Below, piece after piece: positions 3,657-50,815 of a stretch of DNA of 64,000 bases. The DNA comes from Tubiluchus corallicola. Its lineage: Eukaryota; Animalia; Priapulida. The stretch covers positions 186,001 through 250,000 of the forward strand of contig JAQGDQ010000235.1 of the NCBI GenBank assembly GCA_030141605.1, written 5' to 3'. How positions within the stretch are numbered: the first letter of the stretch is position 1; every line of letters begins with the position of its first letter. A program made the translations under genes and the position numbers. The notes beneath the pieces are model-generated. The model saw nothing but the letters and a program-made list of their open reading frames with translations, ran no database searches and was not told the origin of the DNA.

Positions 3657-3836
3657 AGGCTTTTTGTGGGGATTTTGACTGTCCACCGTATGGTGACCCT
3701 ATTTGTGCAACTAAAGCTGATAACATGGAACCCTTGCCAGATGACATGAAAAGTTGGCCAAGCCCTTGTGACTTGGCCTGTGCAATGATAAAGAATCCTT
3801 CATTACGTAATCTCACTCTCACCAGATGTTCACAAG
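3657..3836 (+). CDS. Exon 1 (K1), atypical Kazal domain
   Basis: tctag|AG...CAAG|gtac; [59 protein letters not shown]; absent from the ORF track. Confidence 0.85.
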
Positions 3837-48800: not shown

Positions 48801-50815
48801 GCATGTTTAACAGTAATTATACAATAATAAAGACTATTATATGATCTAGTTATTTTGTTAGCAAATTTTTCCTGCCACTGTCACCAAATCATTTAATATA
48901 AAATGATTAGCTAAAAAACTCCTAGGGGTGATATCTTATCAGTAAAATAACTGATAAGATAACACAGCTCAAGAAAAAATTATAGCTGCAATATTTACGT
49001 ATTTTGTCCATTTATGTAATTGATTAGCTCGTTACCCATAAATGAGCAGCAAAGTTGATTGGCTTGTTACCAAAAAATGCTGACCATTAATTCTAATGCG
49101 TGGGGCTCAGTTAACTTGTTCTGATTAAATGAATGTGCTGTAGAGGGAAAACCTTGTTAGGTGGGTCTACTTACCTCTTGCTATAGATCATTTCAAGTCA
49201 AATTTCTCCCACTTTGCATTATCTAAAGGGATGGGATGCAATATTTCAGATAGGTGCCACATCGATAATTATAATCTGTTATGGAGGCGATACAGCACTG
49301 TTTTAAACATAAATTTACAAAAGATGTTCTTCCAAAGATATTAAGGAACTTTAGAAGCAAAAATAAAAGCAAGTGTTTTTTGCACAGCATATAAATGAAA
49401 ATGGAAACAAGAGAAGAAATACACTAGCTGCTGATTGTTCAGCAATTTCATTTGTGCTTACTTAAATCACTTGCCCACCTCTTCATGCCTGTGGAAAATA
49501 CACAGAATGATTTACAGGTTTGCTGCTTATGTAGTAATGTATTTTCATATGTGCTTACCTTTTTAATTTTTTTCAGTAAGCAGTATTCCTACATATCCGC
49601 GTTGTCATTGCCCTTTCCTAGGTCGTAATCTAGTTTGCGGGACAGATGGTAATAAATATTTCAACTGGTGTATACTGGAGTGTGTGGCTGCGGTAACACC
49701 AGGTTTGAAAAAAGATGATAGCAATGAGTGCTTGAGTAAGCATTCTTTCTTATACATAAATAATTGAAAACGTAGTCTTTCTAAGCAAAAAACATTTTGT
49801 TGGTAAAAAATATATGTTCTAGATTATTAAATAATTCTGAAACAGTAGCAACTTTTGTTGTGTCAGTTACTGATCGCATGTACCATTGCTTTATTTTTTG
49901 TTTAGTAAGAAACTTATTTTTTATTTCAAATGGAGTAAATGTATTTTTCATGTAATTTAGCATTATATTTTGCATAAGCCGAAATGTGGAGAAGTTGCAA
50001 ATTTTGTGACTTCTGTTGGAAGAAGTACCTTGTTTGCAATGAAAATGGTGAATTCATATAGCAAAATTTGCGTTGTTTCACTACACTGTTCTGTTGTTGA
50101 TGCTGGTATTGTAGGTGCCATCGTCATCATCACCATGTGCTGTGAATGGTTTGGTGTGGTGTGGTATGGTGTGGTGTTGTGTAGTGTGAGAATGGTATAT
50201 ATGACATAGCTTTTTTATTTAGTCCAGTTTTATTATCCTATTTGATAGATACGTATATAGCCAAAAGCATTATAGCTTTTGGAACGTTTCAACTTTAGGA
50301 AAAAACTAATCCACATTGTTAAATACTGTGTACTTGCTTATTGCGTTCTTTTTACCCAATGGACTGGATATGTCATTTAGAACACCATTTTTGTTTTTTG
50401 GATCAGCTTCTTTGTCAGTATATCATTTAGAACACCTTTATTTTGCTTAAAGCCTGTTTTATCACAAAACCTTAGAATATGGAGTAGCTCTATTGTGATG
50501 TCAGAATGTTGAAACTCCCTAGAACTTACTAACAATTAGAATGGGAATGAGACCAGTGTGCTGAAATGGACAGCTTTATAGAGTTACTTTTTAAAAAATT
50601 AACCCAATAAAGTTTATGTTATTAAAAATTATGTTCTTTATTGGTAAAAATTATCCGTTTAGTTCCTGGAAAGGAATATGCTCATCGGTGCAATGGTACA
50701 ATACCAGTAATGGAAGGAAAAAGGCCTATGCCTTGTACCAAAGAAATGCCTTGTCCAATTGGTTATGAATGTAATATGGAATTAGAAGATGCCATGCCAG
50801 TGTGCTGTGTTCAAG
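3657..50815 (+). CDS. Partial multi-exon gene: multi-domain Kazal / Lustrin(WR1)-type cysteine-rich protein, probably a secreted protease inhibitor or matrix protein (12 exons seen; ends not seen)
   Basis: 12 exons with AG/GT borders and lengths of 180,168,156,144,162,219,198,156,174,144,159,153 nt. They join in frame with no stops (671 codons), one domain per exon. N-glycosylation sequons: NLT, NCT, NNT, NKT, NGS, NGT. Confidence 0.85.
3942..4124. mobile_element. Small MITE-like inverted-repeat element
   Basis: ~37-bp inverted ends AGACTTACGAGATGATGACATCATTAGTATGATTG / CAATCGTACTGATGACGTCATCATCTCGTAAGTCT. Confidence 0.7.
4765..6560 (-). mobile_element. Degenerate LINE (L2/CR1 group), RT region plus 3' tail
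   Basis: Minus-strand remnants [33 protein letters not shown]; (TTGAA)n tail at ~4767-4787; interrupted by an ATT microsatellite. Confidence 0.75.
6105..6278. repeat. (ATT)n microsatellite
   Basis: Directly visible. Confidence 0.95.
7159..7326 (+). CDS. Exon 2 (K2), Kazal domain, P1 Leu
   Basis: ttttcag|AT...TTTG|gtagg; [55 protein letters not shown]. Confidence 0.92.
7802..7957 (+). CDS. Exon 3 (K3), Kazal-like domain
   Basis: tctag|AT...TATG|gtaaat; [51 protein letters not shown]. Confidence 0.88.
8070..9205. mobile_element. Foldback-like element; ends built from AAAATGGCACA sub-repeats in inverted orientation
   Basis: AAAATGGCACA arrays at ~8070-8215 and TGTGCCATTTT arrays at ~9085-9205; a related end lies at ~38063-38210. 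Confidence 0.55.
9520..11123. repeat. Long inverted repeat: ~500-bp arms (~9520-10030 and ~10665-11123) with a ~630-bp spacer
   Basis: For example AAAACAGTAATCAAACAGTGATCGATCTAATCAGTAAATGG (9640) is mirrored by CCATTTACTGATTAGATCGATCACTGTTTGATTACTGTTTT (10975); the arms are collinear throughout. Confidence 0.9.
11365..11508 (+). CDS. Exon 4 (K4), Kazal domain, P1 Leu
   Basis: tttag|CG...TTAA|gtaaga; [47 protein letters not shown]. Confidence 0.9.
13600..14900 (-). mobile_element. Highly degenerate Gypsy-type pol remnant
   Basis: Minus-strand motif [10 protein letters not shown] at ~14170-14205; many stops; boundaries approximate. Confidence 0.5.
15247..15700 (+). mobile_element. Probable BEL/Pao gag remnant
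   Basis: [24 protein letters not shown] resembles the LP.iei..FdGd...y..F...F motif of BEL/Pao gag (DUF1759). Confidence 0.5.
16375..16703. mobile_element. Non-autonomous hAT (Charlie-like) MITE, 329 bp
   Basis: TIRs CAGTGGTTCCCAAA / TTTGGGAACCACTG; perfect 8-bp TSD TTCTAGCA (16367-16374, 16704-16711). Confidence 0.93.
17575..17785 (+). repeat. GGACATTTGGACAC sub-repeat array (end of a foldback-like element)
   Basis: Inverted counterpart (TGTGTCCAAATGTCC) at ~21360-21600; another copy at ~30610-30740. Confidence 0.6.
18715..19950 (+). mobile_element. Degenerate CR1-type LINE: ORF1 and endonuclease remnants
   Basis: [15 protein letters not shown] (ORF1-like); GVTETW...[11 protein letters not shown]...GAGVTLYV and [11 protein letters not shown] (apurinic endonuclease motifs). 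Confidence 0.75.
20471..20700. repeat. (CT)n microsatellite
   Basis: Directly visible; explains the spurious SL/ER-rich ORFs. Confidence 0.95.
21360..21600 (-). repeat. TGTGTCCAAATGTCC sub-repeat array (inverted partner of 17575-17785)
   Basis: Short tandem motifs in reverse-complement orientation. Confidence 0.6.
21900..22061 (+). CDS. Exon 5 (L1), Lustrin/WR1-type 6-Cys domain
   Basis: tttag|TT...AAAG|gtact; [53 protein letters not shown]; absent from the ORF track. Confidence 0.85.
22399..22617 (+). CDS. Exon 6 (L2), Lustrin/WR1-type domain with 8 Cys
   Basis: tctag|GA...CGAG|gtaac; [72 protein letters not shown]. Confidence 0.85.
25688..25807 (+). mobile_element. 3' fragment of the non-autonomous Helitron, head-to-tail with the next copy
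   Basis: Hairpin CGCAAAATCTTTTGCG followed by CTAG; matches the 3' end of 25808-26606. Confidence 0.85.
25808..26606 (+). mobile_element. Non-autonomous Helitron, ~800 bp
   Basis: 5' TC, subterminal hairpin, 3' CTAG; closely similar copy at 33024-33824. Confidence 0.9.
26631..26695. repeat. (ATT)n microsatellite upstream of exon 7
   Basis: Directly visible; explains the poly-Ile/poly-Leu ORFs. Confidence 0.95.
26780..26977 (+). CDS. Exon 7 (K5), Kazal domain, P1 Leu
   Basis: tttcag|AG...ACAG|gtgat; [65 protein letters not shown]. Confidence 0.88.
27120..27286. repeat. Compound (GA)n/(GT)n microsatellite
   Basis: Directly visible. Confidence 0.95.
27598..28831 (-). mobile_element. Internally deleted Tigger/pogo DNA transposon, 1234 bp
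   Basis: TIRs CAGTGGCCGCCGCTTATT / AATAAGCGGCGGCCACTG with TA TSD. N-terminal HTH ([16 protein letters not shown]..., ATG at 28434) is joined out of frame to the DDE_1 C-terminus ([31 protein letters not shown]) and an acidic tail ending [10 protein letters not shown]. Confidence 0.92.
32246..32664 (+). mobile_element. 5'-truncated RTE (BovB-like) LINE
   Basis: Open frame [30 protein letters not shown]...[21 protein letters not shown] (C2H2 finger); (GCC)n(GAC)n tail; 9-bp TSD AAACGGTGC. Confidence 0.9.
33024..33824 (+). mobile_element. Non-autonomous Helitron inserted into the Gypsy 3' LTR remnant
   Basis: TC...hairpin...CTAG inserted between A and T with no TSD; empty site GTTATCA|TATATAAT present at ~35877-35891. 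Confidence 0.93.
35783..35795 (-). promoter_or_regulatory. Primer-binding site complementary to tRNA-His
   Basis: Minus strand TGGTGCCGTGACT directly after the LTR end; complementary to the tRNA-His 3' end ...AGTCACGGCACCA. Confidence 0.8.
38992..39674 (+). mobile_element. Diverged copy of the non-autonomous Helitron
   Basis: TCTACATATTAAT start, AGGCTACAGCT, TCAAACGAAAGG, TTCAGCAAAAA, end CTGG|T; preceded by a 3'-end remnant ending CTAG. Confidence 0.75.
39737..39892 (+). CDS. Exon 8 (K6), Kazal domain, P1 Met
   Basis: tttcag|GA...TTAA|gtaagc; [51 protein letters not shown]. Confidence 0.92.
42355..42528 (+). CDS. Exon 9 (K7), Kazal domain, paralog of exon 2
   Basis: tttcag|GT...TTTG|gtagg; [57 protein letters not shown]. 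Confidence 0.9.
45785..47096 (-). mobile_element. Probable solo LTR related to the 35796-37376 LTR
   Basis: Same terminus ATTCATAACA; shared TAAGAT(T/C)ACTTAACT motif; imperfect possible TSD GTTA/GCTA. Confidence 0.45.
47876..48019 (+). CDS. Exon 10 (K8), Kazal domain, P1 Lys
   Basis: tttcag|TA...ATGG|gtaagc; [47 protein letters not shown]. Confidence 0.92.
49577..49735 (+). CDS. Exon 11 (K9), Kazal domain, P1 Phe
   Basis: tttcag|TA...TTGA|gtaagc; [52 protein letters not shown]; absent from the ORF track. Confidence 0.92.
50663..50815 (+). CDS. Exon 12 (L3), Lustrin/WR1-type 6-Cys domain, paralog of exon 5
   Basis: tttag|TT...CAAG|gtaatt; [50 protein letters not shown]. Confidence 0.88.

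What the first reader, a model, noticed from the sequence alone, without database searches (positions are those of the whole stretch)
3657..50815. All 12 exons are symmetric phase 1-1 single-domain cassettes, so any skipping combination stays in frame
Seen: every exon length is a multiple of 3, and every exon ends with a leftover G or A. No junction codon can therefore begin with T, so no exon combination creates a stop. Inference: the locus could produce a combinatorial repertoire of inhibitor isoforms with different specificities, loosely Dscam-like. Caveat (established): class 1-1 modules are normal for exon-shuffled extracellular proteins, so the structure permits but does not prove alternative splicing.
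Basis: partly seen in the sequence, partly recalled or inferred. Interest (0 to 1): 0.7.

Follow-up and report, generated by a model that had tools for sequence, protein, structure and literature searches.

The report
Ordinary modular Kazal-Lustrin inhibitor gene
Twelve predicted exons of an invertebrate gene each encode one small cysteine-rich domain of a likely secreted protease inhibitor and could be skipped without breaking the reading frame, but this is the usual inherited layout of such genes, and nothing here points to a Dscam-like mix-and-match system.

Summary
All 12 (9 Kazal-type, 3 Lustrin-like; 144-219 nt) are phase 1-1, multiples of three and end in G (9) or A (3); none of 66 forward junctions is a stop. 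Exon 7's donor is uncertain.

The pattern is ordinary. Class 1-1 is the rule for extracellular modules, and the exons are copies of about two ancestors. An unrelated multi-Kazal contig shows the same layout (4 of 4 clean exons). The G/A ending is the donor consensus.

The Dscam analogy is not supported. There is no docking or selector signal above shuffles, two module types are interleaved, and skipping only removes inhibitors from the full chain. Occasional whole-domain skipping is plausible: database isoforms of multi-Kazal genes in 5 of 5 species lack whole domains. No RNA covering these exons was available.

Best reading: a secreted multi-headed inhibitor (P1 residues L, M, F, K, H, P) diversified by exon duplication, possibly two tandem genes. 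The scan noted similar all-symmetric genes in other genomes and judged them ordinary.

The parts
3657..3836 (+). Exon 1, atypical Kazal-like domain (Cys spacing 4,7,20,3,15; P1 Pro, likely a poor inhibitor); phase 1-1, 180 nt
   Evidence: Pfam Kazal_2 17.6 bits, below the 22.8 cut-off
7159..7326 (+). Exon 2, Kazal, P1 Leu; 168 nt; paralog of exon 9 including flanking intron
7802..7957 (+). Exon 3, divergent Kazal, P1 Leu; 156 nt
   Evidence: Pfam Kazal_2 18.6 bits, below cut-off
11365..11508 (+). Exon 4, Kazal, P1 Leu; 144 nt
21900..22061 (+). Exon 5, Lustrin-type cysteine-rich module (6 Cys); 162 nt; paralog of exon 12
   Evidence: Pfam PF14625 E 8.9e-06, 26.4 bits against cut-off 27; Atlas first hit a Lustrin cluster at 0.79, a lead only
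22399..22617 (+). Exon 6, divergent Lustrin-like module with 8 Cys; 219 nt
   Evidence: no Pfam hit; shares 13 invariant columns with exons 5 and 12; weak match to Lustrin repeats of P0123
26780..26977 (+). Exon 7, Kazal, P1 Leu; 198 nt if the donor at 26977 is used; lacks the donor at the conserved position and may be a terminal exon (stop at 27043)
39737..39892 (+). Exon 8, Kazal, P1 Met; 156 nt
42355..42528 (+). Exon 9, Kazal, P1 His; 174 nt; paralog of exon 2
47876..48019 (+). Exon 10, Kazal, P1 Lys; 144 nt
49577..49735 (+). Exon 11, Kazal, P1 Phe; 159 nt
50663..50815 (+). Exon 12, Lustrin-type module (6 Cys); 153 nt; weakest acceptor of the 12
   Evidence: Pfam PF14625 E 7.6e-05, 23.4 bits, below cut-off
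20470..20697 (+). (TC)n microsatellite in intron 4, complementary in the pre-mRNA to the (AG)n run after exon 7
27118..27286 (+). (AG)n microsatellite 140 nt after the exon 7 donor; with the (TC)n run it brackets exons 5-7
   Evidence: predicted duplex -298 kcal/mol, 154 pairs

Best explanation
The 12 predicted exons likely belong to a secreted, multi-headed serine-protease inhibitor of nine Kazal and three Lustrin-like modules, built by repeated duplication of phase 1-1 exons, and its main transcript would join them in order. Shown: the symmetry, the domain types, the differing P1 residues and the paralogy of exon 2 with exon 9 down to the flanking intron. Inferred: the symmetry is the inherited condition that let copies be kept, not a splicing device. 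Breadth of specificity would come from duplication and divergence of the reactive loops, all present together in one chain of about 670 residues or more. By the C2-X-P1 rule, Leu, Met and Phe point to chymotrypsin-, elastase- or subtilisin-like targets and Lys to trypsin-like ones (established Kazal knowledge; untested here). The Lustrin modules would act as spacers or matrix-binding units, as in nematode MLT-11. A minority of transcripts would likely skip one or a few domains, as in other multi-Kazal genes, which subtracts inhibitors without creating new ones.
For: All 12 exons are open with full Cys sets. A neutral copy at the divergence of exons 2 and 9 keeps six Cys and an open frame in 39 of 20000 simulations. 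7 of 9 Kazal exons pass a Pfam cut-off, and the closest small solved inhibitors are rhodniin, ovomucoid, infestin, dipetalin and LDTI. Duplication history: exons 2 and 9 share 71% identity over 307 nt plus 73% over a further 97 nt of intron, and exons 8, 10 and 11 share the intron start after the donor. Patthy states that all domain types used in metazoan exon shuffling are class 1-1 (PMC8001218, passages) and that skipping of such exons follows from this assembly (PMC6335736, part 1 of 2). Control locus L001, from an unrelated organism, has 4 of 4 clean Kazal exons in phase 1-1 (129, 129, 132, 135 nt). 14 of 17 isoform comparisons in 5 of 5 species show loss of whole six-Cys units. No docking or selector signal was found. 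Linkers between adjacent domains are 6-21 residues, as a continuous chain needs.
Against: No signal-peptide exon or terminal exon was identified, so secretion and the gene's limits are inferred. Exon 7 lacks the conserved donor, which fits a gene end. No protein combining Kazal and Lustrin modules appeared among the 120 Kazal hits listed (of 614) or the 5 hits of the Lustrin profile, so there is no annotated ortholog to anchor the model. Short exons in long introns (up to 12.8 kb) favour skipping (PMC6142364, passages). Unreviewed notes report true mutually exclusive arrays in a Dscam gene of this same genome.
Confidence: 0.62

Rival explanations
1. The window holds two tandem paralogous inhibitor genes. 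Gene A ends in exon 7, which reads through to a stop at 27043; gene B starts in the 12.8-kb, transposon-filled gap before exon 8. Free combination of all 12 exons would then be impossible, and at most 11 exons would be 1-1 cassettes.
For: Exon 7 alone of 9 Kazal exons lacks the donor 1-2 codons after the last Cys, and its donor ranks lowest. The closest pairs lie seven exons apart (2 with 9, 5 with 12). A signal-peptide-like frame starts at 29481.
Against: The other seven-apart pairs (1 with 8, 3 with 10, 4 with 11) show no DNA or intron paralogy in the plus-strand comparison. No copy of exons 6 or 7 lies in the 13 kb after exon 12. The best donor of the 29481 frame is phase 0, and such frames are about as frequent on the opposite strand (3 against 2). 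No shared first-exon sequence lies upstream of both exon 1 and exon 8. AATAAA within 1 kb follows 10 of 12 exons, so it is uninformative. The donor at 26977 still matches the U1 consensus at 7 of 9 positions.
Confidence: 0.25
2. The locus is a regulated combinatorial system: cells choose different subsets or single members of the cassettes, giving up to 4096 ordered subsets with tissue- or challenge-specific inhibitor profiles. Long-range RNA pairing of intronic repeats could assist the skipping.
For: The frame allows it and P1 residues are diverse. Complementary (TC)n and (AG)n runs bracket exons 5-7, and old inverted repeats bracket exons 5-9. Alternative splicing does diversify inhibitor specificity in lepidopteran serpin-1 (PMC10671500, passages). 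Unreviewed notes report docking-selector splicing elsewhere in this genome.
Against: No 8-10-mer is shared by more than 3 of 12 flanks, and 100 of 100 shuffles reached the observed maximum. The best docking window pairs with 9, 7 and 4 of 12 upstream flanks at word sizes 8, 9 and 10, against shuffle maxima of 7-10, 5-7 and 3-4. The best mean duplex energy was -21.2 against -20.9 and -21.6 in two shuffles. Two module types are interleaved, and a subset adds no reactive loop. Equally strong inverted repeats lie wholly inside introns 3 and 4 and bracket no exon.
Confidence: 0.07
3. The locus encodes a polyprotein whose diversity is released after translation: the full chain is cut in the linkers into single or double Kazal inhibitors, as recalled for infestin and dipetalogastin and reported for MLT-11.
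For: The closest solved invertebrate relatives include infestin, dipetalin and rhodniin. [quoted passage not shown]
Against: No repeated cleavage motif is evident in the linkers by eye, and several linkers are only 6 residues. Not tested further. This is a variant of the best explanation, not an alternative to its gene model.
Confidence: 0.06

Closest known systems
Invertebrate multi-domain non-classical Kazal inhibitors (rhodniin PDB 1tbq, infestin 2erw and 2f3c, dipetalin 1kma, LDTI 1an1; RefSeq 'dipetalogastin-like' and 'agrin-like' models such as Priapulus XP_014669070.1)
   Same: Six-Cys Kazal pattern with short C1-C2 spacing, tandem domains with differing P1 residues. Database isoforms that lack whole domains exist in lobster, crayfish, planthopper, salmon louse and soft coral.
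   Different: Here Kazal units are interleaved with Lustrin-like modules, which none of the 120 listed Kazal hits carried by precomputed Pfam. Each exon holds one complete domain, whereas in control locus L001 the phase-1 intron falls inside the domain before the last Cys.
C. elegans MLT-11 (10 Kunitz, 3 Lustrin, 1 thyroglobulin domain; PMC12642537) and WAP-plus-Lustrin protein GFN86201.1 of Plakobranchus
   Same: Protease-inhibitor domains strung together with Lustrin modules; MLT-11 has a signal sequence and acts in the extracellular matrix.
   Different: The inhibitor module here is Kazal, not Kunitz or WAP. No orthology was shown.
Class 1-1 exon-shuffled extracellular proteins (Patthy; PMC8001218, PMC6335736, PMC7502776)
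   Same: One domain per exon, phase 1 on both sides, small disulfide-rich modules; skipping keeps the frame.
   Different: Nothing in exon architecture; only the module combination is particular.
Pancrustacean Dscam1 (PMC12962786) and lepidopteran serpin-1 exon 9 (PMC10671500)
   Same: Tandem paralogous exons that differ at the specificity-determining surface.
   Different: Those are mutually exclusive alternatives for one slot between constant exons, and in Dscam1 the choice is set by docking-selector pairing. Here the modules are of mixed type, no such pairing was detected, and all modules can be co-included.

Membership tests
Kazal-type inhibitor domain (PF00050, PF07648) | Six Cys in Kazal spacing | tested here: met
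   9 of 9 Kazal exons have six aligned Cys; disulfide pairing not tested
Kazal-type inhibitor domain (PF00050, PF07648) | Pfam gathering score | tested here: met
   7 of 9 pass; exons 1 and 3 match below the cut-off
Kazal-type inhibitor domain (PF00050, PF07648) | Reactive-site P1 at C2-X-P1 and inhibition of a serine protease | not testable with these tools
   P1 read as P, L, L, L, L, M, H, K, F (rule from PMC3970688); activity needs an assay
Kazal-type inhibitor domain (PF00050, PF07648) | Signal peptide for secretion | tested here: inconclusive
   no convincing signal exon with a phase-1 donor in the window
Lustrin cysteine-rich domain (PF14625) | Profile match and six-Cys pattern ending in CC | tested here: inconclusive
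   exons 5 and 12 match at E 8.9e-06 and 7.6e-05 but below the cut-off of 27 bits; exon 6 has no hit and 8 Cys
Class 1-1 exon-shuffled modular gene | Each domain flanked by phase-1 introns | tested here: met
   12 of 12 predicted exons; exon 7's donor is uncertain
Class 1-1 exon-shuffled modular gene | Traces of exon duplication | tested here: met
   exons 2 and 9 share flanking intron; exons 8, 10 and 11 share the intron start
Dscam-type mutually exclusive exon array | Homogeneous tandem alternatives for one slot between constant exons | tested here: not met
   order is K K K K L L K K K K K L; no constant flanking exons found
Dscam-type mutually exclusive exon array | Docking site and selector sequences | tested here: not met
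   no signal above shuffles within 200-300 nt of the exons; more distant or unconventional elements not excluded
Dscam-type mutually exclusive exon array | Transcripts with diverse exon choices | tested here: inconclusive
   no RNA run covered any exon examined

The most novel reading that the evidence does not exclude
In an animal reported to have independently evolved Dscam-type splicing, this Kazal-Lustrin locus is spliced in a regulated, combinatorial way into many inhibitor subsets. Pairing of an intronic (UC)n run with an (AG)n run would loop out the Lustrin-Lustrin-Kazal block (exons 5-7) and switch the protein between matrix-bound and free forms.
Probability: 0.07. Interest if true: 0.6.

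Novelty: new member of a known kind. Interest (0 to 1): 0.15.

Why it matters
As it stands it matters little. It is one more modular extracellular inhibitor built from class 1-1 exons. The mildly unusual features are the Kazal-plus-Lustrin combination, which my searches did not find, and a hint that paralogous exons diverge at least as fast as their introns. If long reads showed regulated combinatorial use, it would be a splice-encoded inhibitor repertoire outside the serpins and a test of whether intronic microsatellite pairing can drive block skipping.

Tried and rejected
RNA evidence. The one run search listed no holder on record as RNA. X1 behaves as low-depth genomic DNA, with contigs that cross exon-intron borders without differences. 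X2 (RNA by guess) had listed pieces only on intronic repeats in the two stretches laid, 38500-58400 and 20720-27100. This blank is no evidence about expression.

Genome context. No whole genome is held, so there is no genome-wide baseline for intron phase or donor sequence and no view beyond the window.

Extra or decayed exons. None found by tblastn or nhmmer.

First exon. The candidates at 29481 and elsewhere were not above the opposite-strand control.

Docking and selector elements. None above shuffles (one search covered only 1-3640 and 50820-53500, with two shuffles). Rfam gave no match.

Phylogeny. A tree of the nine Kazal exons was unresolved, with 0 of 6 inner branches supported.

Lustrin homologs. 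Word-indexed searches found nothing. The profile search gave 5 hits, of which 3 carry Lustrin domains and 2 are unrelated repeats.

Exon 6 structure. The model was poor (mean pLDDT 54.9), Foldseek found nothing at E 0.001, and the Atlas hits were below 0.9.

TE copies before exons 7 and 8. Rejected as a marker of duplication because the element is very high-copy (depth above 10,000).

Literature. A search for alternatively spliced invertebrate multi-Kazal genes returned 0 papers; related searches listed none on this point by title or abstract. Most subscription journals are not in the library.
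Full report
What is in the window. It is AT-rich (35% GC), repeat-laden animal DNA; no whole genome is held. A cysteine-pattern scan, a profile built from the first nine hits, and a list of Cys-rich frames gave 12 candidate exons on the + strand. Splice sites were read from the sequence and tabulated. tblastn and nhmmer found no thirteenth or decayed copy. Pfam assigns nine exons to Kazal (7 of 9 above a cut-off) and exons 5 and 12 to the Lustrin cysteine-rich domain below its cut-off. 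Exon 6 has no hit but aligns with 5 and 12 and has two extra Cys. The order is K K K K L L K K K K K L.

The observation. 12 of 12 exons are multiples of three and phase 1-1, nine end in G and three in A, and none of the 66 forward junction codons is a stop. Leave-one-out scores put acceptors at the 84th-99.7th and donors at the 73rd-99.9th percentile of all AG and GT sites in the window. The weak point is exon 7. Eight of nine Kazal exons splice 1-2 codons after the last Cys; exon 7 needs a donor 12 codons on, has a stronger phase-0 rival inside the domain, and would read to a stop at 27043 if unspliced. The exons look maintained by selection: a neutral copy at the divergence of exons 2 and 9 keeps all six Cys and an open frame in 39 of 20000 simulations.

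Is it surprising? No. The donor consensus is CAG|GUAAGU (PMC9311317, passages). With an assumed purine rate of 0.85-0.95 at position -1 (my recall, not measured here), 12 of 12 has probability 0.14-0.54, and only 4 of 12 acceptors could make a stop even after a T. The phases are not independent draws. Exons 2 and 9 share 71% identity over 307 nt and 73% over a further 97 nt of intron, exons 8, 10 and 11 share the start of the downstream intron, and exons 5 and 12 are 42% identical as proteins. Patthy writes that all domain types used in metazoan exon shuffling were found to be class 1-1 (PMC8001218, passages; PMC7502776, whole text) and that such exons are prone to skipping as a by-product of assembly (PMC6335736, part 1 of 2). 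As a control, a metagenome scan returned 9 loci. I examined the three that looked like intron-bearing genomic DNA and set the other six aside after reading their frames. L001, from an unrelated organism, has four clean Kazal exons, 4 of 4 in phase 1-1 (129, 129, 132, 135 nt), with the intron placed inside the domain; its first and last Kazal stretches were not resolved. L006 and L008 each show a phase-1 donor after the domain.

Is there a repertoire? Direct evidence is absent. No RNA holder was listed, X1 is genomic, and X2 showed only intronic repeats over exons 5-12; this says nothing about expression. For indirect evidence I took 10 of the 120 listed Kazal hits because their names contained 'isoform' and aligned sister isoforms for five species. 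I dropped Pectinophora (no second isoform read) and five near-duplicate or fragmentary records. 14 of 17 comparisons lack one or more whole six-Cys units: Homarus 4 of 7, Dendronephthya 5 of 5, Nilaparvata 1 of 1, Procambarus 3 of 3, Lepeophtheirus 1 of 1. The set was chosen for having isoforms and consists almost wholly of predicted RefSeq models whose RNA support I did not see, and repeats can fake such gaps. It shows only that domain skipping is commonplace in annotation, with up to 8 named isoforms per gene rather than thousands. Short exons in long introns also favour skipping (PMC6142364, passages).

Why not Dscam-like. Dscam1 picks one alternative per cluster through docking-site and selector pairing (PMC12962786, passages), and lepidopteran serpin-1 swaps the reactive loop through mutually exclusive exon 9 variants (PMC10671500, passages). 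Unreviewed notes report such a system in a Dscam gene of this genome, so I tested for it here. No 8-10-mer is shared by more than 3 of 12 flanks, and every one of 100 shuffles reached that level. The best docking windows fell within the shuffle range. A duplex-energy scan of the regions before exon 1 and after exon 12 gave -21.2 kcal/mol against -20.9 and -21.6 for two shuffles. The logic also differs: with all-symmetric exons nothing in the frame enforces exclusivity, and because Kazal domains inhibit independently (established knowledge), a skipped form is a subset of the full chain and has no new specificity. One feature leaves the door ajar. A (TC)n run in intron 4 and an (AG)n run after exon 7 could pair (predicted -298 kcal/mol) around exons 5-7, and old inverted repeats bracket exons 5-9. 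Similar inverted repeats also lie inside single introns, so this is expected in a repeat-rich locus.

How it most likely works. The best reading is a secreted multi-headed inhibitor of about 670 residues or more, with 6-21-residue linkers. By the C2-X-P1 rule (PMC3970688, passages) the P1 residues are P, L, L, L, L, M, H, K and F. The closest small solved inhibitors are rhodniin, ovomucoid, infestin, dipetalin and LDTI. Inhibitor-plus-Lustrin chains are known: MLT-11 has 10 Kunitz and 3 Lustrin domains, the Lustrin domains being dispensable and the protein processed (PMC12642537, passages), and a sea-slug protein joins WAP and Lustrin. Diversity here appears to come from duplication and divergence. 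Exons 2 and 9 are 68% identical against 72-81% for their flanks, with pN 0.33 and pS 0.28, but the exon-intron difference is not significant (Fisher p 0.23). Secretion, activity and the splicing pattern are all inferred.

One gene or two. Exon 7's anomaly and the seven-exon offset of pairs 2/9 and 5/12 allow two tandem genes. The other offsets show no DNA paralogy, no copy of exons 6-7 follows exon 12, and no convincing first exon lies in the gap. I put this at 0.25.

Novelty. The exon architecture is known. The Kazal-Lustrin combination was not among the 120 Kazal hits listed (of 614, from a search that scored only the best-sharing candidates), the 5 profile hits, or the titles and abstracts of the 5 papers listed for those terms (passages of PMC13388995 read). 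These searches are weak for short Cys-rich domains, and I opened no supplements. A leech isoform paper (PMC13563554, passages) mentions alternative transcripts at inhibitor loci only in general terms. Verdict: new member of a known kind, interest 0.15; the combinatorial reading has probability 0.07.

Noticed in passing
window 20470-20697 and 27118-27286: Complementary (TC)n and (AG)n microsatellites bracket exons 5-7 and could form a duplex of about 154 pairs in the pre-mRNA, which might favour block skipping or a circular RNA.
   Followed up: partly
window 7119-7629 and 42316-42768: Paralogous exons 2 and 9 are no more alike (68%) than their flanking introns (72-81%), with pN 0.33 and pS 0.28 and P1 Leu against His; a hint of diversifying selection, not significant.
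   Followed up: partly
window 25690-26640, 33029-33861, 38970-39660: Three copies of a roughly 0.85-kb non-coding mobile element with AT-repeat ends, very high-copy in the genome (depth above 10,000 in X1); one copy interrupts the long terminal repeat of a retroelement.
   Followed up: partly
window 32937-35945: Decayed LTR retroelement on the minus strand with gag- and protease-like frames between two 96-98% identical repeats.
   Followed up: no
window 58300-62050: Decayed Gypsy-like LTR retroelement on the plus strand with a near-perfect 69-bp triplication at 60351-60560 inside its RNase H-like frame.
   Followed up: no
window 9521-11123: Fold-back element with long terminal inverted arms (82% over 512 nt) wholly inside intron 3.
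   Followed up: no
window 16239-17285 and 43251-43996: Old inverted repeat copies (66-75% identity) in introns 4 and 9, bracketing exons 5-9.
   Followed up: partly
window 29481-29553: A frame resembling a signal peptide followed by a strong phase-0 donor in the gap between exons 7 and 8; it lies in CT-rich sequence and is not above the opposite-strand control.
   Followed up: partly
window 3657-3836 and 7802-7957: Exons 1 and 3 carry insertions between Cys3 and Cys4 (20 and 13 residues instead of 10), and exon 1 has Pro at P1, so it may have a non-inhibitory role.
   Followed up: partly
L001 585-1345: Multi-Kazal gene of another organism whose repeated 1-1 exons are permuted, with the intron inside the domain before the last Cys.
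   Followed up: partly
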